Shown here in pieces: positions 17,572-53,325 of a stretch of 64,000 nucleotides of DNA (positions are counted from its first letter, which is position 1; every line of letters begins with the position of its first letter). Below the pieces are notes generated by a model that was not told the origin of the DNA, did not search any database, and worked only from the letters and a program-made list of their open reading frames with translations. Origin of the DNA: a virus; IMG/VR virus record IMGVR_UViG_3300045988_162176, positions 64,001 through 128,000 of that record; one strand, written 5' to 3'. Position numbers and translations under genes: made by a program.

Positions 17572-17679
17572 AATTTTTTGTCTCCTTTAATTTCTTTGTT
17601 TTACTTTAGTTATTATTTTAGTTTTTTGTTTCTTCTGCTTATATGTCAAAAGGAAAAATACTTTTCCTTAGATATTTCA

Positions 17680-17749
17680 GCGGCGACTTCGAATCGAACG
17701 AGCATTTCACGGGTTAGAGCCGTGCGCATTGACCATTATACTACGCCGC
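17680..17749 (-). tRNA. Suppressor tRNA, anticodon CUA (reads UAG)
   Basis: Acceptor GCGGCG/CGCCGC, D arm GTAT-AATGGTCA-ATGC, perfect anticodon stem CACGG/CCGTG, loop CTCTAAC. T loop is TTCGATT but the T stem is weak (3 bp). No encoded CCA. Confidence 0.65.
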
Positions 17750-17857: not shown

Positions 17858-17940
17858 AATAAAGCTAGACTCATTTTTCAAAACATTTGTAATCCCAAAT
17901 CACAAGTCTCTAAATAATTGCTGTAAGAGTCTACTTTATT
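17858..17940 (-). repeat. E-repeat copy E1
   Basis: Arms ctagactc (17865-17872) / gagtctac (17927-17934) plus attgctgtaa. Interior hairpin TTGTGA-TTTGGGA-TTACAA has the same loop as the tRNA-Pro anticodon loop. Confidence 0.75.
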
Positions 17941-17954
17941 TTTTTATTTATAAA

Positions 17955-18090
17955 TGGTGGGAATGGAGTGACTCGAACACTCAATTTCCCGATTTGGTGT
18001 TTTAGACAAGTCTTGCACTTGCATTTGAAGTTTTACTTTTAAACTACTAAAACATAAGTCGGGCCCTCTGACCAATTGAGATACATCCCC
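17955..18090 (-). tRNA. tRNA-Ile-like (anticodon TAT) interrupted by a 59-nt insert between positions 36 and 37
   Basis: Acceptor GGGGATG/CATTCCC+ACCA, D arm TCTC/GAGG, anticodon stem CCCGA/TCGGG, T arm GAGTG-TTCGAGT-CACTC. Loop CTTAT[59 nt]AA becomes CTTATAA after excision. Confidence 0.7.
17995..18053 (-). ncRNA. tRNA-like insert lacking an anticodon arm (intron candidate)
   Basis: GTTTTAG-TA-GTTT-AAAAGTA-AAAC-TTCAAAT-GCAAG-TGCAAGA-CTTGT-CTAAAAC-A-CCA: 7-bp acceptor, D-like arm, T arm, discriminator and CCA. Confidence 0.65.
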
Positions 18091-18100
18091 ATATAAAATC

Positions 18101-18192
18101 CTAGACACCATATAAAAATCTAAAAAAGTATTTATTCCAATTAAATATATTTCCCAGTATTTTTATTTTAATTGCTGTAAGTGTCTACTTTT
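18101..18192 (-). repeat. E-repeat copy E2
   Basis: Arms ctagacac (18101-18108) / gtgtctac (18181-18188) plus attgctgtaa. Interior hairpin TATTTA-ATTGGAA-TAAATA. Confidence 0.75.
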
Positions 18193-18204
18193 AACATTAC
18201 TAAT

Positions 18205-18274
18205 CTAAACCCTATCCATAATCTTTTTTTCAAGCAAAAATTAAGTAGTTAAATTGCTGTAAGGGTTTACTTTT
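18205..18274 (-). repeat. E-repeat copy E3
   Basis: Arms ctaaaccc (18205-18212) / gggtttac (18263-18270) plus attgctgtaa. Confidence 0.7.
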
Positions 18275-18326
18275 AAATCATCAATAACTTACCATCTTGT
18301 TTGTAGTACTCCAAACAATTCAATCT

Positions 18327-18392
18327 TGCACCGTGGGGGATTCGAACCCCTCTTAAGCCCTCCGTCGAGCGACCCCAACCTTGGTACGGCAC
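18327..18392 (-). tRNA. tRNA-like gene with truncated body (isotype undetermined)
   Basis: Acceptor GTGCCGT/ACGGTGC and T arm GGGGG-TTCGAAT-CCCCC are clear, but only 35 nt lie between them (41 expected) and no anticodon arm could be folded. Confidence 0.35.
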
Positions 18393-18399
18393 TTATAAA

Positions 18400-18545
18400 C
18401 TAGACGCATAATACTAACAAAGGAGAATCATGAAAGCATCATAAACTAATTAGCAAGGAACAATACCCAAAATCTTTTTTTAAATATTAGAATTTTTTTA
18501 TAGAATTTGATTTTTATTATTGTTTGCTGTAAGCGTCTACGTTAG
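18400..18545 (-). repeat. E-repeat copy E4 (longest interior)
   Basis: Arms ctagacgc (18400-18407) / gcgtctac (18533-18540) plus tttgctgtaa. Confidence 0.7.
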
Positions 18546-18565
18546 ATAATTTGAATTGTTGCTTA

Positions 18566-18646
18566 TGGCAGGGATGGAAGGATTCGAACCTTCGAAAAAA
18601 ACTCATAGAGTCAAAGTCTACTGCCTTACCGCTTGGCTACACCCCT
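18566..18646 (-). tRNA. tRNA-Gln (anticodon TTG), unusually long variable region
   Basis: D arm GCCAAGCGGTAAGGC as in bacterial tRNA-Gln, stem GTAGA/TCTAT, loop CTTTGAC, 11-nt variable GAGTTTTTTTC, CCA encoded. Confidence 0.7.
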
Positions 18647-18781
18647 ATATATTTTCCTTAGCTGGTGGTTCCGATTCGCCCATCCAGAACTCCCTACTTG
18701 AGTGCCATTCTATACTCATTAGAGGCTTTCCGACTGAAGGGTATTTTAATTTATTTATCGTCTTTTAAACTACTAAGGAAT

Positions 18782-18856
18782 TGGAGCAGAAGACGGGAAT
18801 CGAACCCGCACCTACGACCTCGGAAGCCGTTATTCTCACCATTAAACCACTTCTGC
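18782..18856 (-). tRNA. tRNA-Arg (anticodon CCG)
   Basis: Acceptor GCAGAAG/CTTCTGC, loop TTCCGAG, T arm GCGGG-TTCGATT-CCCGT, CCA encoded. Confidence 0.85.
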
Positions 18857-18886
18857 AAGGTTGGTTTATCTCTCAACCACATCTTA

Positions 18887-18915
18887 AGTATAACATATAC
18901 TTTTCATCTTGTCAA
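18887..18915 (-). promoter_or_regulatory. Sigma70-type promoter
   Basis: TTGACA (18910-18915) - 17 nt - TATACT (18887-18892), upstream of the tRNA run. Confidence 0.55.
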
Positions 18916-19143
18916 GTACTTTTTAAAATTTCTTTTTGGAAGATTTTTTCGTTCAAATTAAGGAGGACAAAAACTTTTTGATACCAAAACAACTCAAGAC
19001 CAAGAAGTTCACAAAGAGCATCAACATCTTTCATTGTATACTTGTCTTTCTTTAAAGCTTTAATTTTTTCAACAATTTCCTCTTCTAAGAATAAAAATTC
19101 GTCCATAATAAAAATCCTCTTTTATTTGGGGAAAAATTCTAAA

Positions 19144-19216
19144 ATGAAGTGGTTGGAATCGAACCAACGACCAGCGAAGATACCCCAACGCCGCTCTACC
19201 CCTGAGCTACACTTCA
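19144..19216 (-). tRNA. tRNA, isotype undetermined (atypical anticodon arm)
   Basis: Good acceptor TGAAGTG/CACTTCA, D arm GCTC/GAGC and T arm GTTGG-TTCGATT-CCAAC. The anticodon arm is GCG-TT-GGGGTATC-TT-CGC (3 bp plus U.U pairs, 8-nt loop). Confidence 0.5.
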
Positions 19217-19217
19217 A

Positions 19218-19292
19218 TGGAGCTGGATGAGAATTTTGAAATCTCGACTTCCACTTTACAAGAGTGGCGCTCTGCCTCTGAGCTAATCCAGC
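19218..19292 (-). tRNA. tRNA-Thr (anticodon TGT)
   Basis: Acceptor GCTGGAT/ATCCAGC, stem CCACT/AGTGG, loop CTTGTAA, CCA encoded. Confidence 0.8.
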
Positions 19293-19317
19293 AAATAAAG
19301 GACTAAACAAATAGTCC

Positions 19318-19833
19318 TTATCCACGAGTACGTTTCCAATAATTTGCCATTTTATATTCAGGCTTATTAGTAACTTCCTCGATAAACACTTCAGGAAAAG
19401 GCCAAACATAACTATTAGCTTCTTCCTCAGAATCAAATTCAACTTCGGCATAATAGAAGGCATTATCAGTTCCGCCATCTACAAGATTGAATTCAATTAA
19501 ATAACCATTATTGTAAAGACCTCTATAATCTTTTACAATAGGATTATAACCAAGTTCATTAAAACAGTCAAACAAAGAATTATCTGTAAGATTTGTTTCA
19601 ATTTCAGTACGAGTTAAAGTACCACCAGACTTGAAAGTAAGAGCATCTGGACGATAACCTTTGCCACTTTCAAACCAACGTCTTATACGAATTTCCTGTG
19701 AAATTTTTCCATCAGAATTATATTTGATATTAATATAAATAGTTTTAACAATTCCGACTTCATCAAAATCGACTTTAGGAAAACCAGAGATTAAAAACTT
19801 ACGTTCGATTTCGATTGAATTATTATTACTCAT
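19318..19833 (-). CDS. CYTH-domain (triphosphate tunnel metalloenzyme) protein
   Basis: N-terminal ExExK signature IEIERKFLI; size typical of CYTH proteins. Confidence 0.6.
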   Translation of the reverse strand: MSNNNSIEIERKFLISGFPKVDFDEVGIVKTIYINIKYNSDGKISQEIRIRRWFESGKGYRPDALTFKSGGTLTRTEIETNLTDNSLFDCFNELGYNPIVKDYRGLYNNGYLIEFNLVDGGTDNAFYYAEVEFDSEEEANSYVWPFPEVFIEEVTNKPEYKMANYWKRTRG

Positions 19834-19852
19834 TTTTAATCTCCTTTTTCCA

Positions 19853-19947
19853 TGGCACTAGCGGTAAGATTCGAACTCACGAGACGGATACAAGCCGTCA
19901 CACATCATTTCAAGTGATGGCAGTTATGACCACTTCTGTACGCTAGC
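19853..19947 (-). tRNA. tRNA-Ser (anticodon TGA)
   Basis: Type II: stem CATCA/TGATG, loop CTTGAAA, long variable arm, CCA encoded. Confidence 0.85.
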
Positions 19948-19954
19948 ATTTATT

Positions 19955-20260
19955 TTATGTTTCAGAGAACAGATAGATACCTTTTTCTCCTACATCCTTT
20001 TTAATATCAGTAAATTCTTTATCACTAATTTGAGTCATTGGAGGGAATACACTTTTGAAAGAAGAACAACCATCTTTTTCAATAGTAACCATTTGTTTCT
20101 TACAAACTGGGCAAGTATAATTCCAAGATAAAAAATTAGTTTCATCCTTAGCAATTTTCATCTCTACTACTTGCATTATTCCCTTATTACAATGAGGACA
20201 TCTATAAACAAACTTTTTATTACTTGCTGTCTAATAAATGTAAGTCTTAAAATTAGTCAT
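19955..20260 (-). CDS. Zinc-ribbon protein (one in-frame TAG at 20231-20233)
   Basis: The ORF-track 19955-20176 ORF extends upstream through TAG to ATG 20260 (..YRCPHCNKG...CPVCKK..). Confidence 0.5.
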
Positions 20261-20284
20261 TAGAATTTACTTCCTTTTATTTTT

Positions 20285-20372
20285 TGGTTGCTGAAGCATG
20301 GGAGTCGAACCCACTATCGTACAGGGTATGAACCTGACATGATTTATAATTATCCGTTTCACTCGCCAGCAA
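20285..20372 (-). tRNA. tRNA-Met/Ile2-type (anticodon CAT) with enlarged D region
   Basis: Loop TTCATAC, T arm GTGGG-TTCGACT-CCCAT, ~9 extra nt between acceptor and anticodon stem, CCA encoded. The acceptor register is ambiguous. Confidence 0.55.
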
Positions 20373-20448
20373 TGGTGGACCTGACAAGACTTGAACTTGC
20401 GACTTCCTGCGTGCAAAGCAGACACTCTCCCAACTGAGTTACAGGCCC
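20373..20448 (-). tRNA. tRNA-Ala (anticodon TGC)
   Basis: G3:U70 pair present, loop TTTGCAC, T arm GCAAG-TTCAAGT-CTTGT, CCA encoded. Confidence 0.9.
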
Positions 20449-20449
20449 A

Positions 20450-20989
20450 TAATTAAACTATACTCCCAAATAGCAACAGAGTTTTTTACAAGAACTCTAT
20501 AACTTGGCTTTTGTTGTTCATCCTCAGCACCACCTGTTAGGAGCAATAAGCAGTATGCTCGGCTTATTGTGTTTTAAGGTTACATGACCCATAACCTCAA
20601 TACCTACCCCGATTTAGTTGCAGTAATCAGAGTTTTTGTTTGAACAAGTACGCAACCACTTGTCCCCGTAAACACGGCACAGACTTCTCCGTATAGCTTT
20701 TCGCTGTAGGTTTTTGATGTTACATTCGCACCCTAACATCTCTCGCCATATATCTGTGTTCTGCCCATGTGCGGCTCATAGCCTTTTTCAGCTTGTGACA
20801 GCTTACTTTGCGTTCGAGAACCATTCACTTGTTCTCTACTCCAAGACTTCGGACGGGCGTTGGGGCTTTAGCTTAACGGACTAAAGGTGAGTTCAAATAT
20901 ATGAAACACCGACGAGGCTTTAGCCATCCTTGCTGAATCGGGCAGTTTAATATAAGTTATATTCTCTGTCTGCCAATTGATATATAACT
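20450..20989 (-). ncRNA. Candidate large structured ncRNA (~540 nt) between tRNA-Leu and tRNA-Ala
   Basis: No credible ORF on the coding strand, clearly more GC-rich than flanks, embedded in the tRNA run. Confidence 0.35.
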
Positions 20990-21074
20990 TGGTGGCTAAG
21001 GTGGGACTTGAACCCACATCTCTTTCGAGGGTTGTACTTGAAGCAACTGCGTATGCCAATTTCGCCACTCAGCC
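20990..21074 (-). tRNA. tRNA-Leu (anticodon CAA)
   Basis: Type II: D arm GCG-AAATTGGCATA-CGC, loop TTCAAGT, variable arm CCTCGAAAGAGAT, T arm GTGGG-TTCAAGT-CCCAC, CCA encoded. Confidence 0.8.
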
Positions 21075-21087
21075 ATAATAATTAATA

Positions 21088-21210
21088 CTAGACACGTTTT
21101 TTTTGATATCGGTCATCCAGACATCCCCCGAAGGAGACGGAAGAATCGAACTTCCCCGTTTAATTTTCCATATTAAAGAATCAAGTAATTTTGCTGTGCG
21201 TGTCTACTTG
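21088..21210 (-). repeat. E-repeat copy E5 enclosing a permuted tRNA-like module
   Basis: Arms ctagacacg (21088-21096) / cgtgtctac (21199-21207). Interior runs hairpin TTAAT-ATGGAAA-ATTAA, T arm GGAAG-TTCGATT-CTTCC, GTCTCCT, TC, GGGGGAT (3' acceptor strand before 5'). Confidence 0.6.
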
Positions 21211-21260
21211 AAAGGAATTTATATTTGCCTATTAGAAAAATAGGAGCGTCAATCTATTAA

Positions 21261-21394
21261 CTAGACTCATTTTACAAAATCTGTTGCTCTACCAGTTGAG
21301 CTAACTCCCGATGGTCGGGAGCAGAGGATTCGAACCTCCAACACACAGGCCCATAGCATTTGTGATTGTAAAGTTGCTGTTAGAGTCTACTTGA
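21261..21394 (-). repeat. E-repeat copy E6 enclosing a circularly permuted tRNA gene
   Basis: Arms ctagactc (21261-21268) / gagtctac (21383-21390) plus gttgctgtta. A second helix pairs TTTACAA with TTGTAAA. Confidence 0.75.
21275..21349 (-). tRNA. Circularly permuted tRNA (Gln-like, UUG): 3' half precedes 5' half
   Basis: Minus strand reads CCTGT-GTGTT-GGAGG-TTCGAAT-CCTCT-GCTCCCG-A-CCA-T-CGGGAGT-TA-GCTC-AACTGGTA-GAGC-A-ACAGA-TTTTG. The acceptor strands pair 7/7 only in this permuted order. Confidence 0.65.
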
Positions 21395-21466
21395 AAGGAA
21401 TGCTTTTATGAACAATAAAAAATGAACATTAGCTTACAAATAAATTTGTATCTTTACCATGTTTTT

Positions 21467-21495
21467 ACTATAACATAAAATTTTCATTTTGTCAA
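21467..21495 (-). promoter_or_regulatory. Sigma70-type promoter
   Basis: TTGACA (21490-21495) - 17 nt - TATAGT (21467-21472), ~85 nt upstream of E6. Confidence 0.65.
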
Positions 21496-21518
21496 GAATT
21501 TTAAAACAAAAATTTTAC

Positions 21519-21602
21519 TGGTGGGTGAGGAAGGTGCCGACCCTTCTACTCCGTTAGGAAAGAGTTTTACAGACTCCCGTGTTTGCCGATTCACTACTCA
21601 CC
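21519..21602 (-). tRNA. tRNA-Tyr (anticodon GTA)
   Basis: Type II: stem GGAGT/ACTCT, loop CTGTAAA, long variable arm. T loop is non-canonical (GTCGGCA) and the acceptor register is uncertain. Confidence 0.65.
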
Positions 21603-21633
21603 TATTTAATTATTTTCCTTTTTTAGAAAGGGG

Positions 21634-21700
21634 CTAGACGCTTTTTGTGTATTCTTATTTAACAGATAAGTACATTTAAATTGCTGTAAGCGTCTACTAT
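21634..21700 (-). repeat. E-repeat copy E7
   Basis: Arms ctagacgc (21634-21641) / gcgtctac (21690-21697). Interior hairpin CTTAT-CTGTTAA-ATAAG has an Asn-type GUU loop. Confidence 0.75.
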
Positions 21701-21732
21701 TGAAGTCATTACAAAATTAGCATTTCTGCTAT

Positions 21733-21808
21733 TGGTGCTCATGGAGGGACTCGAACCCTCGACAGACGGCTTAAAAGGCCGCTACTCTACCAACTGAGTT
21801 ACATGGGC
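21733..21808 (-). tRNA. tRNA-Lys (anticodon TTT)
   Basis: Stem GCGGC/GCCGT, loop CTTTTAA, T arm GAGGG-TTCGAGT-CCCTC, CCA encoded. Confidence 0.85.
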
Positions 21809-21815
21809 ATAAATA

Positions 21816-21952
21816 CTAGAGACATTGTTGTTATGGACTCCTGCCTTAAACCACTTGGCTACATACTTCAACTGAAGACGTTCGGATTCGAACCGAAGAA
21901 TGGGAGTTTGGCTTCTAACATACTTTCAGAATTGCTGTTAGTCTCTACTTTA
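21816..21952 (-). repeat. E-repeat copy E8 enclosing tRNA-like parts (order and anticodon unresolved)
   Basis: Arms ctagagac (21816-21823) / gtctctac (21941-21948). The interior has T arm TTCGG-TTCGAAT-CCGAA, then a Gln-like D arm GCC-AAGTGGTTTAA-GGC, with split stem GGAGT/ACTCC. Confidence 0.55.
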
Positions 21953-22119
21953 TAAATATCTTATTGAAAGGAAATTATTCATATCAGATAGAGAGAAAGG
22001 AGAAATAATATCTCGTCAAATAATTAATTCTTAACCCTTCGATAGATTTAAGTTCCCCTCATTTAAATCCGATAAAACTTACTCACACTATCATAAGAAC
22101 GGATTTCTGATTTGAATAA

Positions 22120-22195
22120 TGGTACTCGGTACGGGGTTCGAACCCGTGCTACTGACGTGAAAGGCCAGTGTCTTAGCCCACTTGACTAACCGAGC
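22120..22195 (-). tRNA. tRNA-Glu (anticodon TTC)
   Basis: Stem CTGGC/GTCAG, loop CTTTCAC, T arm ACGGG-TTCGAAC-CCCGT, CCA encoded. Confidence 0.85.
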
Positions 22196-22203
22196 ATATT
22201 AAC

Positions 22204-22330
22204 CTAGACTCTTTTGCGTATTATTCACCACAGAGCGCCCTCTGACGAGAATCGAACTCGCTAATGATTGTTTTGCAGACAATTGTGTTAACCTTTTTAA
22301 GAATTTGCTGTAAGAGTCTACTTTATTATT
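22204..22330 (-). repeat. E-repeat copy E9 enclosing a permuted tRNA-Cys-like module
   Basis: Arms ctagactct (22204-22212) / agagtctac (22313-22321). Interior runs ATTGT-CTGCAAA-ACAAT (GCA), CATTA, GCGAG-TTCGATT-CTCGT, CAGAGGG, CGCTCTG. Confidence 0.6.
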
Positions 22331-22458
22331 CAGGAGGTTTTACCTATGCACTTATTATAACATATCATCTTTAAGATGTCAACCACTTATTAAAATTTTC
22401 TTTTTGCTTTTTATCTTTTTGAGAAGTTTTTATTTTGCTCTTTTCTTAAGATGTATTT

Positions 22459-22487
22459 ATCTTACCACACTTTTAGATTTCTGTCAA
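22459..22487 (-). promoter_or_regulatory. Sigma70-type promoter
   Basis: TTGACA (22482-22487) - 17 nt - TAAGAT (22459-22464). Confidence 0.55.
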
Positions 22488-22494
22488 GACTTTA

Positions 22495-22887
22495 TTAGAA
22501 ATTTTCTTTTTCGAAATGATTAGCAAAAGCTATATAATTTTGACTTTTAATAAGCTCCTCAAAAACCTCTACAGGAGGCTCAACAAAGTTTCTAATAAGG
22601 TCTACTAATTCTATCATAGAATTAGCTTCGAGGGTAAAGATTAAACCATCATATGGAATACATCTATAAACCCATTTGCCTGACGTACTTTGATAACAAT
22701 CGGCATTAGTCCAAACTTGAGTAGCATCTAAAATACGAGATTCCCAAGGATATTTAATAATTTCAGAACCTCTTTTATACCAATAATTAAATTCTTTATC
22801 TTTTAAAATATCATTGGTTTCAAGCTCGCACTCGTCGCCATTACAAATAGAATAATGACCGACAATTTTAAATGAAGAAGTATCCAT
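22495..22887 (-). CDS. Hypothetical protein
   Basis: ORF track. Confidence 0.6.
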   Translation of the reverse strand: MDTSSFKIVGHYSICNGDECELETNDILKDKEFNYWYKRGSEIIKYPWESRILDATQVWTNADCYQSTSGKWVYRCIPYDGLIFTLEANSMIELVDLIRNFVEPPVEVFEELIKSQNYIAFANHFEKENF

Positions 22888-23159
22888 TACTCAGTAACCT
22901 CAGCGTAAGTTAATTCCATAATATCAGGCTTAACGGGATAAAATTCACCCTTAATTCCCTTAACAATGTAATCTCCTACAGAAGCACAGTGATAACCTTC
23001 AAGAGTATAAATAATAAGATTCTTTTTAATTCCCTTCATTGTATGTTCAGTAGTAACACAACAATGAGCGCCAACGAAACTTGTAATTTCTTCTTCGTTA
23101 TCGCCAGTCCAGATAATTGCTTGAATAGCAATAGGTTTCTTAATATATGTCTTAATCAT
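22887..23159 (-). CDS. Hypothetical protein
   Basis: ORF track. Confidence 0.6.
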   Translation of the reverse strand: MIKTYIKKPIAIQAIIWTGDNEEEITSFVGAHCCVTTEHTMKGIKKNLIIYTLEGYHCASVGDYIVKGIKGEFYPVKPDIMELTYAEVTE

Positions 23160-23175
23160 ATCTCTTCACCTTGAC

Positions 23176-23472
23176 TCATCTATATTTATACTTAAGTTGA
23201 CAAGACTTCAACCAAATCCAAAACAAAAGAGAAGCGTCAATTCCATCTACTTCATTCATAATGCGATAATTATCAGAATCTTTTTCAGGATAGCCATAAA
23301 CTACTTGTGCATCATAGCACTAAACAAGATACTTACAATTTGTCTTAGATATAATAGCAAGCTCACTTATATAATTAAATTTATCAACTTTCTTTTCGTA
23401 ATAAGTCCCGAATTTATCTGAAGAGATAAGTTTATATCCATGTTTAGCAAACTGTTTGTCAATATAATCCAT
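23176..23472 (-). CDS. Hypothetical protein (one in-frame TAG at 23330-23332)
   Basis: Hand translation MDYIDKQFAKHGYKLISSDKF...KYLV*CYDAQVVYGYPEK... is open to TGA 23176 if TAG is sense. Confidence 0.45.
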
Positions 23473-23479
23473 AAAAATA

Positions 23480-24505
23480 CCCTTTTATTTTATTAAATAT
23501 ATAAGGAACAAAAACTGATAACTACTGACAGACCAGCTTTTCACTTATCTGTCCTCGGTTTGGCTGAGGAGGGGCTATTCCTTATAAGGGGCTTACACTC
23601 AACTATCTTGGTCATTTTCATTATCAGTTTTGCTCATTGCATAAGGGTTTAACGTACCCAGTTAAGCAAAGCAACGGTCTTTCTATTGTTACCAGTCCAT
23701 CAGACTTGGAGGGCGGTTCAGTGTCGAATACATTGTAACCAGCTAAACTGTATTCCAAGATAAGTTTCGTACTATATCTTACGGATTTCTTGTTTTTTTA
23801 AAAAGACATCAAGAAATATCTAACCATTCTGTCTTTTGGAGCGGCATCGAAGAATCGAACTCCAAACATAATAAAAGTATTGTCCATGGCTACTTTTATT
23901 ATTACACCAGTTGCCGCATATTTGCTGTCTCTCCAAGCTGTCACCGCTAATATGGTTGTAGGTTCTGGACGGTCTGAACTTAGGTGCGCCATACACACAT
24001 CCTAACATTAAGCGATACTCCATCTGTTAGGCGAACTTCCATCTTTATAAGACGGTATCGTAGTTACTGGACCTCATAATTGGATTCGAACCAACTTCCT
24101 CTCCCGATGTGGCTGTTATCGCTAAGGAGCTACCTTAGTGTTTATTCAACATCAGTTATCGAGAATGCACCATTACACTAATGGGGATATAAATGTTATA
24201 GACCTTTTAACTATAACTCACAGGCTTTCCCTTATTCAAACAAGGTGGCGGGACGTGTGCTGTGTTTTTAAAAGAAAGTCCTTGTTATACTTTTTCTTTC
24301 AAGGATTTAGTGGTAAGAACTTTTCTTGACCATAGGCGTTCTCAAACCTACTCCTTTACCTATATGCTCAACATAAATTAGGTTAAGCATCTCAACCTTG
24401 AGGTCAACTGGGGTATCTTACAGCCGTTCGGTTTATTTTTAGTTTGAGTAAACCTTCCTCAAACACTCCTTCATCCACTTTTTTACAAGGATACGGAATC
24501 CACGA
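23480..24505 (-). ncRNA. ~1 kb ORF-free structured region with embedded tRNA-like modules
   Basis: GC-enriched. Two T-arm plus 3'-acceptor-CCA ends (CCA at 23837-23839 and 24068-70). ACAGCAA/ACAGCCA motifs as in the E repeats. ORF-track ORFs here are short and overlapping. Confidence 0.35.
23837..23917 (-). ncRNA. tRNA-like RNA: acceptor + T arm + 12-bp hairpin replacing the D and anticodon arms
   Basis: GCGGCAA...ATGCCGC-T-CCA, T arm TGGAG-TTCGATT-CTTCG, hairpin ATAATAAAAGTA/TACTTTTATTAT. The 5' leader GGAGAGACAGCAAATAT pairs TTGGAG with CTCCAA at the 3' end. Confidence 0.45.
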
Positions 24506-24509
24506 GTTT

Positions 24510-24597
24510 TGGCGCAGATAACAGGATTCGAACCTGTATTACCTTACGGTAAGCGGCTGTAGCAGAGCCGTGAGATAGCCAATTACTCCATATCTGC
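24510..24597 (-). tRNA. tRNA-Ser (anticodon GCT)
   Basis: Type II: acceptor GCAGATA/TATCTGC, stem CGGCT/AGCCG, loop CTGCTAC, long variable arm, CCA encoded. Confidence 0.85.
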
Positions 24598-24609
24598 ATA
24601 ATGAGCAAT

Positions 24610-24740
24610 CTTGACACTTTTTTCTAGCCAACCACGGTTAACCATTCCTTGCTCAAGGGATACGTTAATAAGGAGTCGAACCTTACACGACGTTATTCCA
24701 AAAACATAAAATAAATTTGCTGTGAGTGTCAACTTTTGTT
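24610..24740 (-). repeat. E-repeat copy E10 (variant arms) enclosing tRNA-like parts
   Basis: Arms cttgacac (24610-24617) / gtgtcaac (24726-24733) plus tttgctgtga. Interior T arm TAAGG-TTCGACT-CCTTA then TTAACGT. The fold is not resolved. Confidence 0.55.
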
Positions 24741-25497: not shown

Positions 25498-25631
25498 TGG
25501 AGCAAGATACGAGATTCGAACTCGCCCTTACGGTTTTGGTCCTTTAAGTAAGACTTGAACTTACATCAATGGTTTTTCATTAAACTATTAAAGGGGAAGA
25601 CCGTCGTGCTAACCACTAACACTAATCCTGC
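25498..25631 (-). tRNA. tRNA-Gly-like (anticodon TCC) interrupted by a 58-nt insert between positions 36 and 37
   Basis: Acceptor GCAGGAT/ATCTTGC+T+CCA, D arm GTGT/GCAC, perfect stem ACGGT/ACCGT, T arm GCGAG-TTCGAAT-CTCGT. Loop CTTCC[58 nt]AA becomes CTTCCAA after excision. Confidence 0.7.
25537..25594 (-). ncRNA. tRNA-like insert lacking an anticodon arm (homolog of 17995-18053)
   Basis: CCTTTAA-TA-GTTT-AATGAA-AAAC-CATTGAT-GTAAG-TTCAAGT-CTTAC-TTAAAGG-A-CCA. Confidence 0.65.
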
Positions 25632-26254: not shown

Positions 26255-26728
26255 TTACTTTTTCACCGAAGTCACGCCATTAAAATCATACAAACGTACA
26301 ATATGGCTTAGTCCTAAAGTGTCAGAAATATCAGCACTAATGATAGACCAATCTCCACCAGCAAGACCACACCCAATCATATAAGGCATAGCAATCTCTT
26401 CTCCAATAGGAATCATTTCACGAATCTTAAGAAGACATTCATGAAAATATTCATAGTTGGTGTTTACATTTGGTCCACCAATGCCAATCTGAGAAAACAT
26501 ATTAAGAAAAACTTTATCTTTGTTTTCCTCAATTCGAAGAACTTTACCATAAAGCTCTTCAGGAGTATGATAACTACAAAACTTATTATACTCCAAATAA
26601 ACATGAGGATAATTCTTCTTAATTTGAAGAGCAACACCAGCGCCCATTACACCAAAGGTATTAGCCTGATGACAAATATACTTTGCCGAAGTCTTAAGGA
26701 CATCGCCTTGAATAATAGACACTGACAT
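26255..26728 (-). CDS. Macro-domain protein (ADP-ribose binding/hydrolase)
   Basis: IIQGDVL...ICHQANTFGVMGAGVALQI...GCGLAGG, the typical macro-domain pattern. Confidence 0.75.
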   Translation of the reverse strand: MSVSIIQGDVLKTSAKYICHQANTFGVMGAGVALQIKKNYPHVYLEYNKFCSYHTPEELYGKVLRIEENKDKVFLNMFSQIGIGGPNVNTNYEYFHECLLKIREMIPIGEEIAMPYMIGCGLAGGDWSIISADISDTLGLSHIVRLYDFNGVTSVKK

Positions 26729-26739
26729 AACCTTCTCCT

Positions 26740-27060
26740 TTATTCTTTATCTGTTTCTTGCAAATTTTCTTGCAACTTCTTATAATACATATGATAAGAA
26801 TCAAAGTATTTAAGAAGAAATTCTTTATAAACTTTAGCGACATAATTAGCAGAACCCACAGGAAAATCAAGACCCAAATCTTCTGCAATAATATCTACAG
26901 CTTTTCTCAAAGGCTCAGGAGGGATATTATTCAGTTTAAACTTTTTAGTTTCTGAATCATTATCACACCAAGCTTTGCCATTTACAACCGTTAAAAACCT
27001 AATTGAAGGATTCTTAGAGAGTTCCAACTTGTGTTCCTCACTTCTCTTATAGGGTAACAC
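26740..27060 (-). CDS. Hypothetical protein
   Basis: ORF track (non-ATG start). Confidence 0.45.
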   Translation of the reverse strand: MLPYKRSEEHKLELSKNPSIRFLTVVNGKAWCDNDSETKKFKLNNIPPEPLRKAVDIIAEDLGLDFPVGSANYVAKVYKEFLLKYFDSYHMYYKKLQENLQETDKE

Positions 27061-27109
27061 AGATGTTTAAATCTGTCAAGTATTTAATAAAAGAAATTTT
27101 TTATTTCTC

Positions 27110-27346
27110 CTACTTTTTATTATCATCAAATTTGCCAGAATGGATAGCTTTTCTACTGACAAACTTTGCCGCAGAAAATATAAATACAAACAAGGGAAAG
27201 AAAAATACACCTAAAGATTCAAATGACTCAGAAAAATCCCAATAGTCTTCATCTTCTTCTGCAATGCACTTCATTACACGAGCAAAGAAAATCCACAGAA
27301 TATGATTAAGAATTATAAGAATTGTAATAATCAACCACTTAGGCAT
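27110..27346 (-). CDS. Hypothetical membrane protein
   Basis: ORF track. Ends at a TAG; read-through adds 3 codons before TAA. Confidence 0.5.
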   Translation of the reverse strand: MPKWLIITILIILNHILWIFFARVMKCIAEEDEDYWDFSESFESLGVFFFPLFVFIFSAAKFVSRKAIHSGKFDDNKK

Positions 27347-27359
27347 ATTAATTCCTTTC

Positions 27360-27435: not shown

Positions 27436-27440
27436 ATACC

Positions 27441-27875: not shown

Positions 27876-27883
27876 AATTTACC

Positions 27884-28550: not shown

Positions 28551-28586
28551 AATTAATTCCTCACTTTTAAATAGATTTTTATTCTT

Positions 28587-50949: not shown

Positions 50950-52308
50950 TTACCCTTCCACCATAGAGTTTTTAAAACGCTTTAAATTGTGTAGGGCTTT
51001 TGTAATTTCAGAATATTTGTAGCAAAACTGTTTCTTCAGCAAGAAATCGTTTTCTTGCCCAAGATATTTGGTCTTTGTTCTGCCCTTTAATACTTTAGGA
51101 AGTTTATCCATCCAAAGCATTGCTTCTTTTTTATCATTCCAAAAGTCTACACATTCCGCATTTCCTTTAACTAAAATTTTATCAATAAGCTCTTTATAGA
51201 GATTAAGATATTCATGAACAGTATTATAATATTCCATAATTAAATCTCTATATGCTTCAGGACATTTTGCCAAAAAGTCATCAAATCTATCTTCGTGAAT
51301 AGCATTAATAACAGCGTTAGGAGAAATATTTTTAGATAATGCTTTATGCATTAAAACATAATCCGATGTTTTGACTTTGCATCTAAAATGATTTTTATGT
51401 CTATCAACCATATCAACTACCCAACCTTCTTTTTCAGAAGAAAGATAATTATCAGTATCAGCTAAAATGCTAAATAAAGTAGCATTATAATACCATTGAG
51501 TCATTTTAGAATCATATTCCTCAGCCATATCACTAAGGATATCAAAAGAAACTTCCTTACCATCCTTAACATCTCTTGCCGCAAGTAAATATAATCCTTC
51601 TTGAGATTCATTATATTTAACAACAATAGGATTTTTTGGAGAAATATATTCAAAAATAAAAGTATAATCAGGATAATCCTTAATTAATTCTTTCTGCCCA
51701 TCAGATAAGAGCTTATAACCCTCAGCAAGTCTCCAAGATTCAACAGGGTCTAATGCCTGAGAACCAGAACCTAAAATTCTGTCTTCCTCTGCAATATATC
51801 TGTATTGCTGATAAGAACCATCAAGCTTATTAGTAATAAAAACTGAATGAGCAAAATTATATTTAGACCTAATATTTTTAGGAGACCAATCACCATCATC
51901 CTCACCATAGTTCTTAAACTTTGCCAAAGATGCAAGAGCAATTTCATCGTTCTTTAAATCAAAGACACAAGAACGACATTCTCTATAAAGACCATCATAT
52001 AATTCAAAGAAAGAGCCTAAATCATAATCATCAGATAATTCAATAAAACCCTTGTACTTAAAAAGCACATAATGGTCATAACAAGTAATCTGAAGAGGGT
52101 CAAAAATCTTATTTAACTTTTCATTAAGTTTAGGAGTAATATTCCCCCATACTTCAAGAACTCTGTCAAGCCAATCATTAAAATTATAATTCTCAGGACA
52201 AGGTTCATTGTTAAGGAGAGTATAAGACTGGATATACTTTCTTTTAACAGTCATAACATATTCATAAAGAGGATGCCAAAGAAACTCTTTTTGAAAACGA
52301 AAATTCAT
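50950..52308 (-). CDS. RNA ligase (T4 Rnl1-like)
   Basis: Nucleotidyltransferase motif I TNKLDGS; length and adjacency to a polynucleotide-kinase-like gene. Confidence 0.6.
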   Translation of the reverse strand: MNFRFQKEFLWHPLYEYVMTVKRKYIQSYTLLNNEPCPENYNFNDWLDRVLEVWGNITPKLNEKLNKIFDPLQITCYDHYVLFKYKGFIELSDDYDLGSFFELYDGLYRECRSCVFDLKNDEIALASLAKFKNYGEDDGDWSPKNIRSKYNFAHSVFITNKLDGSYQQYRYIAEEDRILGSGSQALDPVESWRLAEGYKLLSDGQKELIKDYPDYTFIFEYISPKNPIVVKYNESQEGLYLLAARDVKDGKEVSFDILSDMAEEYDSKMTQWYYNATLFSILADTDNYLSSEKEGWVVDMVDRHKNHFRCKVKTSDYVLMHKALSKNISPNAVINAIHEDRFDDFLAKCPEAYRDLIMEYYNTVHEYLNLYKELIDKILVKGNAECVDFWNDKKEAMLWMDKLPKVLKGRTKTKYLGQENDFLLKKQFCYKYSEITKALHNLKRFKNSMVEG

Positions 52309-52344: not shown

Positions 52345-53325
52345 TTATTCTTCAGAAATTCCACTTGCAATTTTATCACATTCATTAAACAAGAAAAGCT
52401 TATCAAGATTTTCTTTTCCCATAACCTTTTCCCATTTAGCTTTAGACTTTTCAGTTTCAAGAAAGAATGGGAGCATATGGAAATTAACATAAAACAGACA
52501 TTTTAAAATATCATTCATATTAGTAAATCCAATGCAATCCAGATTCGCTAAGAGGTCATATGTCCCTACATTATGATGACTATAATATCTATAATCACCA
52601 GAACCATCTTCTTTGGGCTGTCCAGTAGTTAACTTGCCTAAATCATGAATCTGTGCGGCTCTATAAAGAACCTTATCGTCAGTTCTCTTAGCAACTTCCT
52701 CAGCACAAATCCTGCAATGCTCATCTAAAGTATACTTATGATGATGAGTCTTTTGGTCAAAACCTTTCATCAAGCTCATAATATAGTCATCATCAGTAGT
52801 CCAATTAGACTGAGGCACAATTACTTCAAACTGATTAAAATTCCAACCAATTAAATTAATTGTATCAAAACCTTCCTCATAAAAAGGAATTTCAAACTTA
52901 CCAATCTGTCTATCAATAACTTCTTCGGGAACTGTACGAGCCCTTGCTCTATTCTGTCTTTTGCAAACAGCAATAGGAGTAGTCATAACATAAGCAACTT
53001 TAGTGACATTTTCCTTATTGCGAACAATATCCAACAAGCTCTTACGAGATTTAACATTAATATTAGTTGCATCGACAATGATATTCATTTTATCAACGCA
53101 ATTATTAATACGGCGACGAACTTCTTTAAAGACCTCATCATTATGAGTTTGGTCATTTACATCTCCAAAAACAGTTTCACGAATTTCATCCGACGAAACA
53201 ATCATTGTGGGCTGACCCATTTTAGTCAACATATCTTTAAGATTCTGAGCAAGAGTAGATTTGCCACTTGCAACAACTCCAATCATCATCATAAAATTCG
53301 TATGTTCCATTTTTGTTCTCCTCAC
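52345..53325 (-). CDS. P-loop polynucleotide kinase-like domain fused to an HD phosphohydrolase domain
   Basis: Walker A GVVASGKST in the N-terminal half and HD signature AAQIHDLGK in the C-terminal half. Confidence 0.6.
   Translation of the reverse strand: MRRTKMEHTNFMMMIGVVASGKSTLAQNLKDMLTKMGQPTMIVSSDEIRETVFGDVNDQTHNDEVFKEVRRRINNCVDKMNIIVDATNINVKSRKSLLDIVRNKENVTKVAYVMTTPIAVCKRQNRARARTVPEEVIDRQIGKFEIPFYEEGFDTINLIGWNFNQFEVIVPQSNWTTDDDYIMSLMKGFDQKTHHHKYTLDEHCRICAEEVAKRTDDKVLYRAAQIHDLGKLTTGQPKEDGSGDYRYYSHHNVGTYDLLANLDCIGFTNMNDILKCLFYVNFHMLPFFLETEKSKAKWEKVMGKENLDKLFLFNECDKIASGISEE

What the first reader, a model, noticed from the sequence alone, without database searches (positions are those of the whole stretch)
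17955..18090. tRNA gene carrying a 59-nt tRNA-like insert exactly between anticodon-loop positions 36 and 37
The outer gene has all four tRNA helices, but its anticodon stem (CCCGA/TCGGG) is closed by 66 nt instead of 7.

The extra 59 nt (17995-18053) fold as a miniature tRNA without an anticodon arm: a 7-bp acceptor stem GTTTTAG/CTAAAAC, a D-like arm GTTT/AAAC, a T arm GCAAG-TGCAAGA-CTTGT, then A-CCA.

Removing precisely +1 through CCA leaves the canonical 7-nt loop CTTATAA (U33, anticodon UAU, A37).

This suggests an intron recognised as a tRNA. 5' and 3' tRNA processing could excise it, leaving a 3'-OH and a 5'-P in the anticodon loop. That is the substrate type sealed by T4 Rnl1-type ligases, and one is encoded at 50950-52308. 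I know of no described bacterial or phage tRNA intron of this kind.
Basis: partly seen in the sequence, partly recalled or inferred. Interest (0 to 1): 0.92.

Follow-up and report, generated by a model that had tools for sequence, protein, structure and literature searches.

The report
Mini-tRNA introns nested inside phage tRNAs
Two tRNA genes of this phage (and dozens in its relatives) carry, inside the anticodon loop, a complete miniature tRNA that lacks only the anticodon arm. It runs exactly from its first base to its CCA end, which points to an undescribed way of splicing tRNAs using ordinary tRNA end-processing enzymes plus a phage RNA ligase.

Summary
The outer gene (17955-18090, minus strand) is a bona fide tRNA (Rfam 51.8 bits). 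The 59-nt insert (17995-18053) alone passes Rfam's tRNA threshold (35.9 bits) with only the anticodon arm missing. A second nested gene, tRNA-Gly(UCC) with a 58-nt insert, lies at 25498-25631.

In related contigs I found 35 distinct inserts (93 instances) in nine tRNA species. Each starts at base 1 of a 7-bp stem and ends 4 nt after it (CCA in 30/35), at loop positions 34/35, 35/36 or 36/37. Insert-free alleles are identical to the rule-spliced hosts (Gly 76/76, Gln 75/75). Insert stems and host cloverleaves both show compensatory evolution, and nested and plain copies never coexist in a locus. These are therefore live genes whose insert must be removed.

Devoto et al. 2019 reported 'enigmatic' tRNA introns in Lak megaphages, one 'possibly encoding a tRNA', with different architecture and no mechanism.

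The parts
17955..18090 (-). Nested gene 1: tRNA-Ile(UAU) precursor gene, 136 nt. It comprises 5' exon + mini-tRNA insert + 3' exon with encoded CCA.
   Evidence: Rfam tRNA 51.8 bits with a 62-nt insertion. ARAGORN intron mode. Called tRNA-Ile(tat) after rule-based splicing. Present with the insert in all 20 related loci that hold this gene, with no insert-free copy there.
18054..18090 (-). 5' exon of tRNA-Ile(UAU): acceptor 5' strand, D arm, anticodon stem 5' strand CCCGA, loop bases C32 U33 U34 A35 U36.
   Evidence: Sequence and Rfam alignment.
17995..18053 (-). Insert 1, a 59-nt mini-tRNA. Acceptor stem 18053-18047 / 18005-17999. U8-A9 at 18046-18045. D stem 18044-18041 / 18033-18030. 7-nt linker 18029-18023 in place of the anticodon arm. 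T stem 18022-18018 / 18010-18006. T loop UGCAAGA 18017-18011. Discriminator A 17998. CCA 17997-17995.
   Evidence: MFE fold. Rfam tRNA 35.9 bits on its own. Family model R1 68 bits. Variants in relatives keep pairing, e.g. A to G giving U.G in L003/L007.
17955..17994 (-). 3' exon of tRNA-Ile(UAU): A37 A38, anticodon stem 3' strand UCGGG, variable loop, T arm, acceptor 3' strand, A73, CCA.
25498..25631 (-). 5' exon 25595-25631, insert 25537-25594, 3' exon 25498-25536.
   Evidence: ARAGORN intron mode. Spliced body matches annotated phage tRNA-Gly genes, with U73, G1-C72, C2-G71. Insert-free alleles in L050/L056 differ from the window's spliced host at 1 of 76 positions and are identical to other nested hosts.
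25537..25594 (-). Insert 2, a 58-nt mini-tRNA: CCUUUAA-UA-GUUU-AAUGAA-AAAC-CAUUGAU-GUAAG-UUCAAGU-CUUAC-UUAAAGG-A-CCA.
   Evidence: Rfam tRNA 41.6 bits (gathering 29), anticodon arm deleted. Model R1 73 bits. 69-nt variants with an added GAAA-capped hairpin occur in relatives.
50950..52308 (-). Rnl1-type RNA ligase (452 aa), the candidate sealing enzyme.
   Evidence: Pfam RNA_lig_T4_1 PF09511 E = 7e-13. PHROG 562 'RNA ligase and tail fiber attachment catalyst' (T4 gp63) E = 5e-33. No PDB sequence hit at E <= 0.01.
52345..53325 (-). Polynucleotide 5'-kinase-like protein (326 aa) adjacent to the ligase. It is a possible end-healing partner. The C-terminal half is unassigned.
   Evidence: Pfam AAA_33 E = 1e-20. 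PDB: kinase domain of C. thermocellum Pnkp 4gp6 E = 4e-11, Pnkp1 4xrp. PHROG 505 polynucleotide kinase.
18566..18646 (-). tRNA-Gln(UUG), empty site in the window (loop CUUUGAC). In relatives the same gene carries 64-, 85- or 120/122-nt mini-tRNA inserts at 35/36.
   Evidence: insert-free allele 75/75 identical to the spliced 85-nt host.
22120..22195 (-). tRNA-Glu(UUC), empty site in the window (loop CUUUCAC). It is filled with a 66-nt insert at 36/37 in L006, L024, L048 and L058.
21733..21808 (-). tRNA-Lys(UUU), empty site in the window (loop CUUUUAA). Relatives carry 61/67-nt inserts at 34/35, or 49/50-nt inserts at 35/36 in a different Lys body.

Best explanation
The insert is a tRNA intron of a third kind, neither self-splicing (group I) nor bulge-helix-bulge. 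It is a miniature tRNA with acceptor stem, D arm, T arm, discriminator and CCA but no anticodon arm, nested in the anticodon loop of a functional phage tRNA gene.

Proposed pathway:
1. The precursor folds as two independent tRNA-shaped domains (predicted).
2. RNase P recognises the inner acceptor/T-arm stack and its 3' NCCA. It cuts immediately 5' of inner base +1, leaving a 3'-OH on the 5' exon.
3. A tRNA 3'-end endonuclease (RNase Z/BN-like, or an unidentified phage enzyme) cuts immediately after inner position 76, leaving a 5'-phosphate on the 3' exon.
4. The two exon halves stay together through the outer tRNA fold as a tRNA nicked in its anticodon loop. The phage Rnl1-type ligase seals the nick, restoring a 7-nt loop (UAU for Ile, UCC for Gly).
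5. A free mini-tRNA ending in CCA is released as a by-product or as a second product.

Shown here: the anatomy, the exact boundaries, the variable loop position, selection on both insert and host, presence/absence polymorphism, and the presence of the ligase and kinase genes.

Inferred: every enzymatic step, and that splicing occurs at all.
For: Anatomy:
- Both window inserts pass Rfam's tRNA gathering score on their own with only the anticodon arm deleted (35.9 and 41.6 bits).

Boundaries:
- 35 distinct inserts (93 instances) in nine tRNA species all start at base 1 of a 7-bp stem that abuts a T arm, and all end 4 nt after it.
- Insert-free alleles are identical to the rule-spliced hosts: Gly 76/76, Gln 75/75, Glu 73/75.
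- The loop position varies (34/35 x8, 35/36 x9, 36/37 x18) while the insert-defined boundaries do not. The insert, not the host, therefore sets the cut sites.

RNase P-type signals:
- N-1 is always a pyrimidine (U 26, C 9) and N+1 is always G or C.
- The last three bases are CCA in 30/35 although the collection rule did not ask for it, while the adjacent discriminator varies freely (A 20, T 7, C 6, G 2).
- Free-standing mini-tRNA genes in other phages end in CCA in only 1 of 11 distinct sequences, against 15 of 17 for nested ones.

Selection on the insert fold:
- 99.6% of cells paired, against 72% shuffled and 40-53% slid. 10 of 12 pairs have double changes.
- Within one orthologous lineage (Glu66 in L006 versus L024), all four stem substitutions preserve pairing, including A-U to U-A.

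Selection on the host:
- Spliced Ile hosts fold as a cloverleaf with 12/21 compensatory pairs and none broken.
- Nested and insert-free copies of an isoacceptor never co-occur in a locus. Ile is 20 nested / 0 free.

End chemistry:
- From established knowledge, RNase P and RNase Z both leave 3'-OH and 5'-P, which is the substrate of Rnl1-type ligases.
- An Rnl1 homologue and an adjacent polynucleotide kinase are encoded.
Against: - There are no RNA data, so splicing itself is an inference from conservation.
- The thermodynamic signal of insert 1 alone is weak (z = -1.36).
- Precise cleavage after CCA is not the normal bacterial route. CCA is an anti-determinant for most RNase Z enzymes, and CCA-encoding precursors are usually trimmed by exonucleases. 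The precedents (Thermotoga maritima RNase Z, E. coli RNase BN) are recalled from memory and were not tested here.
- Five of 35 inserts have CAA, CCG or TCA instead of CCA.
- Two further nested-looking copies (L121, L155) do not regenerate a 7-nt loop under the rule. Some copies may therefore be decaying, or the 3' cut is measured differently.
- No RNase Z-like enzyme, splicing endonuclease or other obvious candidate nuclease is encoded in the 64-kb window.
- The D loops of most inserts lack the G18-G19 that normally forms the tRNA elbow (sequence).
- The Pnk-Rnl1 pair is common in phages without such introns and is sufficiently explained by repair of anticodon-nuclease damage.
- In the Lak phage introns the tRNA-like domain is preceded by a roughly 25-30-nt hairpin and linker, so RNase P alone cannot define their 5' splice site.
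- My covariation set was collected with a rule that required pairing (caveat).
Confidence: 0.5

Rival explanations
1. The insert is a genuine intron, but it is excised by a dedicated, still unidentified endonuclease (phage- or host-encoded) that recognises the inner mini-tRNA or the two-helix junction. That enzyme would leave 2',3'-cyclic phosphate and 5'-OH ends. The adjacent polynucleotide kinase and a phosphoesterase would heal them, and Rnl1 would seal them, as in T4 repair of PrrC-cleaved tRNA-Lys.
For: - A polynucleotide kinase gene sits directly next to the ligase, and a metallophosphoesterase lies at 41212-41739. A kinase is unnecessary if the ends come from RNase P and RNase Z.
- The tail after the stem is always 4 nt even when it is not CCA (CAA, CCG, TCA). 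This fits a structure-measuring enzyme better than a CCA-reading one.
- Lak introns cannot use RNase P for their 5' site.
Against: - No candidate nuclease in the window.
- The strong retention of CCA in nested copies (30/35), but not in free-standing ones, is unexplained by this reading.
- Pnk-Rnl1 cassettes are common in phages as a counter-defence, so their presence is not specific evidence.
Confidence: 0.22
2. The insert is not spliced. It is a selfish or accidental insertion of a mini-tRNA into the anticodon loop. One possible origin is Rnl1 ligating a mature mini-tRNA into a nuclease-cut loop, followed by copying back into DNA. The result would either inactivate the tRNA or turn it into a scaffold whose only product is the mini-tRNA or the composite RNA.
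For: - Presence/absence polymorphism with 100% identical exons indicates recent gain or loss.
- Boundaries equal the mature ends of a tRNA (+1 and CCA), which is what ligation of a mature RNA would give.
- Closely similar mini-tRNAs exist as free-standing genes in other phages.
- A few copies look decayed (L121, L155; non-CCA tails).
- Phage tRNA genes are individually dispensable.
Against: - Host tRNAs carrying inserts have diverged extensively while keeping a perfect cloverleaf (12/21 compensatory pairs, 0 broken).
- They keep a loop that becomes a canonical 7 nt after excision in 35/35 collected cases.
- Nested genes replace rather than duplicate the plain gene (0 loci with both forms), and Ile(UAU) is nested in 20/20. 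A dead gene would not be maintained like this.
- No reverse transcriptase in the window.
Confidence: 0.15
3. A known intron type: an archaeal/eukaryal bulge-helix-bulge intron cut by a splicing endonuclease, or a degenerate group I self-splicing intron.
For: The location in the anticodon loop is shared with both classes. tRNA-Ile(UAU) carries an intron in eukaryotes (from memory).
Against: - No 3-nt bulge / 4-bp helix / 3-nt bulge can be drawn. The junction is a 5-bp helix, a 3-5 nt by 6-8 nt internal loop, then a 7-bp helix.
- Positions are 34/35 to 36/37, not 37/38.
- Lengths of 49-122 nt are far below those of group I introns.
- Rfam finds no intron or ribozyme family in or around the insert even at E <= 10.
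- The gene context is a tailed phage with a Holin_LLH-type holin.
Confidence: 0.02

Closest known systems
Lak megaphage tRNA introns (Devoto et al. 2019, Nat Microbiol, PMC6784885; Table S6)
   Same: - Introns in the anticodon loop of phage tRNAs, including tRNA-Gly(UCC).
- Highly conserved, and polymorphic between related genomes.
- The intron contains a tRNA-like domain (terminal stem + GGTTCGAWTCC T arm) whose 3' end lies 1-2 nt from the 3' exon.
- The authors' comparison of alleles with and without the intron shifts the predicted boundary by one nucleotide, which I read as 36/37.
- One intron gave an Rfam tRNA hit.
   Different: - Lak introns are 79-114 nt. They begin with a hairpin plus an A-rich linker (about 25-30 nt) before the tRNA-like domain, so the 5' exon boundary is not the +1 of the tRNA-like domain.
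- They end after the discriminator region with no CCA.
- No boundary rule, covariation analysis, variable loop position or mechanism was reported. They were called 'enigmatic'.
- The host phages are unrelated in size and composition (540 kb, 26% GC, against 150-220 kb contigs at about 33% GC here).
T4 Pnkp/Rnl1 repair of anticodon-loop breaks (PrrC-cleaved tRNA-Lys); established knowledge
   Same: A phage Rnl1-type ligase with a polynucleotide kinase next to it. The proposed final step, sealing a nick in the anticodon loop of an otherwise folded tRNA, is the reaction Rnl1 is known for.
   Different: In T4 the break is inflicted by a host defence nuclease at 33/34 and nothing is removed. Here the break would be programmed by an encoded insert, and two cuts would release a 49-122-nt RNA.
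Protein-spliced tRNA introns of archaea and eukaryotes (BHB motif, EndA/Sen endonuclease, RtcB or Trl1 ligase)
   Same: Intron in the anticodon loop. Two endonucleolytic cuts followed by ligation of exon halves held together by the tRNA body.
   Different: No BHB motif. Non-canonical and variable position. A bacterial-virus context. Boundaries are defined by a tRNA-shaped intron rather than by the host tRNA or a BHB. The predicted end chemistry is 3'-OH/5'-P rather than 2',3'-cyclic phosphate/5'-OH.
tRNA-like small RNAs released by tRNA processing enzymes (mascRNA from MALAT1; mitochondrial 'tRNA punctuation'); recalled knowledge
   Same: A tRNA-shaped element embedded in a longer transcript is cut out by RNase P at its 5' end and RNase Z at its 3' end.
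   Different: Those flanks are not religated into a functional RNA, the elements are eukaryotic, and CCA is added afterwards rather than encoded.
Group I introns in bacterial tRNA genes (e.g. cyanobacterial tRNA-Leu(UAA))
   Same: The only well-characterised introns in bacterial-type tRNA genes. Located in the anticodon loop.
   Different: More than 200 nt, with a ribozyme core and self-splicing. None of that is present here.

Membership tests
tRNA (Rfam RF00005): outer gene | Covariance-model score at or above the gathering threshold (29 bits) with all four arms | tested here: met
   51.8 bits for 17958-18090(-), full model 1-71, with the insertion in the anticodon loop.
tRNA (Rfam RF00005): outer gene | 7-nt anticodon loop with U33 and a purine at 37 in the mature RNA | tested here: inconclusive
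   Only after removal of 17995-18053 does the loop become CUUAUAA. An insert-free homologue has this loop. The mature RNA was not observed.
tRNA (Rfam RF00005): insert | Score at or above the gathering threshold | tested here: met
   Insert 1 alone scores 35.9 bits. Insert 2 scores 41.6 bits.
tRNA (Rfam RF00005): insert | Anticodon arm and anticodon, i.e. the ability to decode | tested here: not met
   The 18 model positions of the anticodon arm are replaced by 3 nt in the alignment. The insert is tRNA-like, not a tRNA.
Archaeal/eukaryal protein-spliced tRNA intron | Bulge-helix-bulge motif at the exon-intron junctions | tested here: not met
   The predicted precursor fold is a 5-bp helix, an asymmetric internal loop, then a 7-bp helix. 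The same geometry holds in all 35 inserts.
Archaeal/eukaryal protein-spliced tRNA intron | Canonical position 37/38 | tested here: not met
   Sites are 34/35, 35/36 and 36/37, fixed by insert-free alleles.
Archaeal/eukaryal protein-spliced tRNA intron | EndA/Sen-type splicing endonuclease available | tested here: inconclusive
   None among the roughly 80 window ORFs scanned. The rest of the genome and the host are unknown.
Group I intron | Conserved P3-P9 catalytic core, usually more than 200 nt | tested here: not met
   Length 49-122 nt. No Rfam Intron_gpI hit at E <= 10.
Lak-type phage tRNA intron (Devoto 2019) | Conserved insert in the anticodon loop of a phage tRNA with a 3'-terminal tRNA-like domain | tested here: met
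   (Lak sequences).
Lak-type phage tRNA intron (Devoto 2019) | 5' hairpin plus A-rich linker preceding the tRNA-like domain; 3' end at the discriminator region without CCA | tested here: not met
   Window inserts start at +1 of the stem and end in NCCA. Comparison with Table S6 was by eye.
T4 Rnl1 RNA ligase family | Nucleotidyltransferase domain of the Rnl1 type | tested here: met
   PF09511 E = 7e-13, full profile 1-227. PHROG 562 E = 5e-33.
T4 Rnl1 RNA ligase family | tRNA-specific C-terminal domain and activity on nicked anticodon loops | not testable with these tools
   No PDB sequence hit at E <= 0.01. No structure was predicted. Activity needs biochemistry.

The most novel reading that the evidence does not exclude
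A third, previously uncharacterised tRNA splicing pathway exists in bacteriophages. Introns shaped as anticodon-armless mini-tRNAs would be cut out of the anticodon loop by the cell's ordinary tRNA end-maturation enzymes (RNase P at +1, an endonuclease at the CCA end), and the exons would be rejoined by phage Rnl1. This would give Rnl1 a housekeeping role beyond damage repair.

The same logic run backwards suggests how these introns could spread. Rnl1 would ligate a mature mini-tRNA (5'-P ... CCA-3'-OH) into an anticodon loop opened by a nuclease. That would explain the boundaries at +1 and CCA, the restriction to loop positions 34-37, and the CCA that free-standing mini-tRNA genes lack.
Probability: 0.4. 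Interest if true: 0.92.

Novelty: new variant of a known kind. Interest (0 to 1): 0.82.

Why it matters
Bacterial-type tRNA genes are thought to carry only self-splicing group I introns, and protein-dependent tRNA splicing is regarded as an archaeal and eukaryotic trait. This family shows tRNA genes of bacterial viruses that are interrupted by short, non-ribozyme inserts yet are clearly maintained as functional genes. That requires an excision-ligation pathway in a bacterial cell.

The anatomy makes a specific and cheap prediction: RNase P + an end-of-CCA cut + Rnl1. It would also:
- give a physiological substrate to phage RNA ligase 1 and polynucleotide kinase other than damage repair
- explain the 'enigmatic' Lak phage introns at least in part
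- reveal a widespread class of phage mini-tRNAs of unknown function
- offer a natural precedent for expressing RNAs from tRNA anticodon loops

On the practical side, default bacterial tRNA finders miss these genes or mis-assign them. ARAGORN calls both window genes tRNA-SeC(UCA) in intron mode, so phage tRNA repertoires and codon-usage inferences are biased.

Tried and rejected
1. **Chance hairpin.** Energy alone is not significant (z = -1.36), so I relied on covariance models and comparative data instead.
2. **ARAGORN's junction (anticodon UCA, 'tRNA-SeC') and the CCA(Trp) alternative.** Rejected by the Gly identity of gene 2 and by insert-free alleles.
3. **The insert as a copy of the intergenic motif AAAGTAGACNCTTACAGCAA.** It shares TTTAAAAGTAAA with it, but the motif search finds 10 copies, none in the insert. 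The shared stretch is the D arm that ordinary AT-rich phage tRNAs also have.
4. **Small self-cleaving ribozymes, C/D-box RNA, group I intron.** No Rfam hit.
5. **BHB intron.** The geometry does not fit.
6. **Close relatives in INPHARED.** None.
7. **Distant relatives reached through the Thg1-like protein (55 loci, 1.08 Mb).** No mini-tRNA at E <= 1e-5. All ARAGORN 'introns' there are two adjacent tRNAs merged.
8. **Bacterial genomes.** Only 3 pattern hits in 596 Gb, so no host clue.
9. **Search for a nuclease, CCA-adding enzyme or reverse transcriptase in the window.** Only HNH/AP2/GIY-YIG homing-type endonucleases, a DnaQ-like exonuclease and a weak nucleotidyltransferase.
10. **PDB sequence search for the ligase.** Nothing at E <= 0.01.
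11. **Literature after 2019 for a mechanism of phage tRNA introns.** None found in the held library.
12. **Not done.** I did not predict protein structures or use the large protein searches, because they would not decide the RNA question.
Full report
**1. The observation**

All recognisable genes of the window lie on the minus strand (GC about 33%). On that strand 17955-18090 reads GGGGAUG-UA-UCUC…GAGG-G-CCCGA-CUUAU-[59 nt]-AA-UCGGG-AAAUU-GAGUG-UUCGAGU-CACUC-CAUUCCC-A-CCA.
- Rfam's tRNA model scores it 51.8 bits (gathering 29) with a local insertion in the anticodon loop.
- Default ARAGORN misses it. With introns allowed it reports a 59-nt intron, but places the junction so that the anticodon reads UCA.
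- The folding energy of the insert is not exceptional (z = -1.36). However, the insert alone passes Rfam's tRNA threshold (35.9 bits). Acceptor stem, U8-A9, D arm, T arm and discriminator align, and the anticodon arm is deleted.

**2. A second case in the window, and a family**

ARAGORN in intron mode found a second gene of the same build at 25498-25631. Its loop reads CUUCC-[58 nt]-AA, and the insert is CCUUUAA-UA-GUUU-AAUGAA-AAAC-CAUUGAU-GUAAG-UUCAAGU-CUUAC-UUAAAGG-A-CCA.
- The 'short tRNA' that Rfam had reported at 25540-25594 (41.6 bits) is this insert.
- The two inserts share architecture but have different stem sequences.

Exon and insert patterns retrieved relatives from IMG/VR and from metagenomes. 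I collected nested cases with a structure rule: a T arm abutting the 3' strand of a 7-bp stem, any 4-nt tail, a flanking 5-bp stem, and 7 loop nucleotides in total. The host had to be called a tRNA by ARAGORN after splicing. This gave 35 distinct inserts in 93 instances.

| Property | Result |
|---|---|
| Host tRNAs | Ile-UAU, Gly-UCC, Lys-UUU, Gln-UUG, Thr-UGU, Glu-UUC, Pro-UGG, Asn-GUU, Leu-UAA |
| Insert length | 49-122 nt |
| Loop site | 36/37 (18 inserts), 35/36 (9), 34/35 (8) |

A stricter version of the rule gave 21 raw hits where shuffled sequence gave 0-6. ARAGORN's intron mode does not look at insert structure, yet it found the same genes.

**3. The boundaries are proven by empty sites**

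Several of these tRNA genes occur both with and without the insert in closely related contigs.

| Isoacceptor | Insert-free allele | Identity to the rule-spliced nested host |
|---|---|---|
| Gly(UCC) | L050, L056 | 76/76 (75/76 to the window's host) |
| Gln(UUG) | L005, L148 | 75/75 (host of the 85-nt insert) |
| Glu(UUC) | six loci | 73/75 |
| Ile(UAU) | L068, a more distant phage | 93.6% to one nested Ile host, with the same CCCGA-CUUAUAA-UCGGG arm |

Because the bases flanking each junction differ, the boundaries cannot be slid. The inserted unit is therefore exactly 'base 1 of the stem through the fourth base after the stem'.
- The window itself holds empty sites for Gln (18566-18646), Glu (22120-22195) and Lys (21733-21808) that are filled in relatives.
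- The site in the loop differs between tRNAs while the insert-defined ends do not. The information for excision must therefore lie in the insert.

**4. Both partners are under selection**

Insert:
- On an ungapped alignment of the core (both stem strands, T arm, tail) of 19 sequences, 99.6% of cells pair. Shuffles give 72% and slid partners 40-53%.
- 10 of 12 pairs show changes on both sides.
- My collection rule demanded pairing, so the percentage is partly built in. The diversity of stem sequences and the within-lineage changes are not.
- Between the orthologous Glu inserts of L006 and L024, all four stem substitutions keep pairing, including A-U to U-A.
- Ile inserts of L136 and L140 have the same D arm as the window's insert but three double substitutions in the terminal stem.

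Host:
- Six diverged Ile(UAU) hosts, all insert-bearing, fold into a cloverleaf with 12 of 21 pairs compensatory and none broken.
- In 62 loci with at least one nested gene, no locus holds both the nested and the plain form of an isoacceptor. Ile(UAU) is nested 20 times and plain never; Gly(UCC) is 35 to 5.

These are not decaying pseudogenes, so the insert must be removed or tolerated. A 59-nt tRNA-shaped domain between U36 and A37 is incompatible with decoding, so removal at the RNA level is the reasonable inference.

**5. Clues to the mechanism**
- The base before the insert is always a pyrimidine (U 26, C 9), and the first insert base is always G or C.
- The last three bases are CCA in 30 of 35 although the rule did not ask for it, while the neighbouring discriminator varies freely (A 20, T 7, C 6, G 2).
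- Very similar mini-tRNAs exist as free-standing genes just downstream of ordinary tRNAs in unrelated phage contigs. Among strong covariance-model hits, these end in CCA in 1 of 11 distinct sequences, against 15 of 17 for nested ones.
- From established knowledge, a 7-bp acceptor stem stacked on a T arm with a 3' NCCA is the recognition unit of bacterial RNase P, which cuts at +1 and leaves a 3'-OH on the leader.
- From memory, RNase Z-type enzymes leave a 5'-phosphate on the trailer, and at least Thermotoga RNase Z and E. coli RNase BN can cut after CCA.
- The product would be a tRNA nicked in the anticodon loop with 3'-OH/5'-P, the classical substrate of T4 RNA ligase 1.
- The window encodes an Rnl1 homologue (50950-52308) next to a polynucleotide kinase (52345-53325), and a Thg1-like protein at 31276-32100.

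**6. What speaks against it**
- No RNA data.
- No nuclease candidate in the window.
- Cutting after CCA is unusual.
- Five tails are CAA, CCG or TCA.
- Two nested-looking copies (L121, L155) do not restore a 7-nt loop under the rule, and a Glu-like host in five contigs has C33.
- The kinase next to the ligase is unnecessary for RNase P/Z ends. It fits a rival in which an unknown nuclease leaves cyclic-phosphate and 5'-OH ends.
- The Pnk-Rnl1 pair is in any case explained by anti-defence repair.

**7. Comparison with what is known**

It is not a group I intron: it is far too short, and there is no Rfam hit. It is not a bulge-helix-bulge intron: the geometry and the positions are wrong.

The closest precedent is in Lak megaphages. 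Devoto et al. 2019 reported 'enigmatic', highly conserved introns in tRNA-Tyr, Phe, Thr and Gly(UCC). They noted that the Thr intron 'itself may encode a tRNA' and that the true boundary is offset by one base from the tRNAscan prediction.
- Their Table S6 shows that all four introns end in a tRNA-like domain.
- That domain is preceded by a hairpin and an A-rich linker, and it lacks CCA.
- No rule or mechanism was given, and later Lak papers only mention the introns.

New here are the minimal form (the mini-tRNA is the whole intron), the boundary rule from +1 to CCA proven by empty sites, the variable loop position, the covariation, the link to free-standing mini-tRNAs, and a testable pathway.

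**8. Verdict**

This is a real, conserved and unusual feature, and a new variant of a phenomenon seen once before and never explained. The structural and evolutionary claims are solid. The enzymology is inferred and readily testable.

Noticed in passing
window 17679-17749 (-): A tRNA with anticodon CUA (ARAGORN calls it 'tRNA-Pyl'; Rfam tRNA 36.8 bits). This is an amber-suppressor tRNA, also present in relatives L002, L005 and L008. It suggests TAG may be read as an amino acid in part of this phage's genes.
   Followed up: no
window 17918-24736 (-), ten sites: A 20-nt motif AAAGTAGACNCTTACAGCAA(TT) occurs 10 times, always on the minus strand between tRNA genes (0.07 expected by chance). It looks like a phage-specific promoter or processing signal for the tRNA array.
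   Followed up: partly
window 24068-24186 (-); also L010, L012, L019, L022, L027, L036 and others: A conserved odd tRNA-like gene. It has a C1-starting acceptor stem CCCCAU/AUGRGG, a D arm, a T arm GUUGG-UUCGAAU-CCAAU and an N-CCA end. In place of a 7-nt anticodon loop there is a roughly 50-nt loop holding a long hairpin (CUAAGG-UAGCU-CCUUAG at its tip). It is not a mini-tRNA insert, and ARAGORN gives inconsistent anticodons.
   Followed up: partly
window 21130-21309 (-); L006 6930-7108, L012 6664-6845, L057 18901-19092: A tRNA 5' half (acceptor, D arm, start of an anticodon arm) and a T arm/3' end are separated by 85-112 nt that contain one copy of the promoter-like motif. The arrangement is conserved in relatives with length variation. 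It may be a disrupted or split tRNA-Thr-like gene.
   Followed up: no
window 18320-18405 (-): A perfect T arm (GGGG-UUCGAAU-CCCC) flanked by a possible 7-bp terminal stem (GUGCCGU/ACGGUGC). Neither ARAGORN, Rfam nor model R1 calls anything here. This is an unexplained tRNA-like remnant or RNA.
   Followed up: no
L020 3992-4056, L025 6066-6131, L030 3882-3947, L044 683-748, L045 3930-3997, L119, L126, L128, L157, L163, L168 (three copies in 2 kb), L172, L175: Free-standing anticodon-armless mini-tRNA genes, often 3 nt downstream of an ordinary tRNA and mostly without an encoded CCA. They occur in unrelated phage and metagenome contigs, including human gut and oral samples. Their function is unknown, and I could not find them described.
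   Followed up: partly
L120 4208-4264, L133 6849-6905, L137, L139, L149: A nested mini-tRNA (CACUGUG…CAUAGUG-A-CCA) sits in a Glu-like host whose loop after excision would be CCUUCAA, i.e. C33 instead of the near-universal U33. It is seen in five independent contigs.
   Followed up: no
window 56287-61531 (-): The DNA polymerase III alpha-type gene is in two ORFs (59297-61531 and 56287-57678), separated by a GIY-YIG endonuclease ORF (57862-58779). This is probably a homing-endonuclease or intron insertion. Several HNH/AP2 endonuclease ORFs are scattered among the small genes.
   Followed up: no
window 4030-5796 (-): A 588-aa protein with DUF2828, DUF7788 and a weak vWA match, assigned to PHROG 850 'RNA-binding protein' (E = 1e-117). 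It could be a Ro60-like RNA chaperone. If so, one of the odd tRNA-like RNAs nearby might be its partner.
   Followed up: no
window 26255-35406 (-): A cluster of ADP-ribose-related genes: PARP catalytic domain + WGR (33337-34584), two macro-domain proteins (26255-26728, 34687-35406) and a NADAR-domain small ORF somewhere in the window. These lie beside a Thg1-like tRNA 5'-end enzyme (31276-32100). The phage appears to invest heavily in RNA/tRNA repair and counter-defence.
   Followed up: no
inserts of Ile in window, L136 2163-2221 and L140 6551-6610: The D-arm region of these orthologous inserts is identical (UAGUUUAAAAGUAAAAC), while the 7-bp terminal stem differs at three pairs, all compensated. 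The terminal stem seems to evolve much faster than the rest of the insert.
   Followed up: partly
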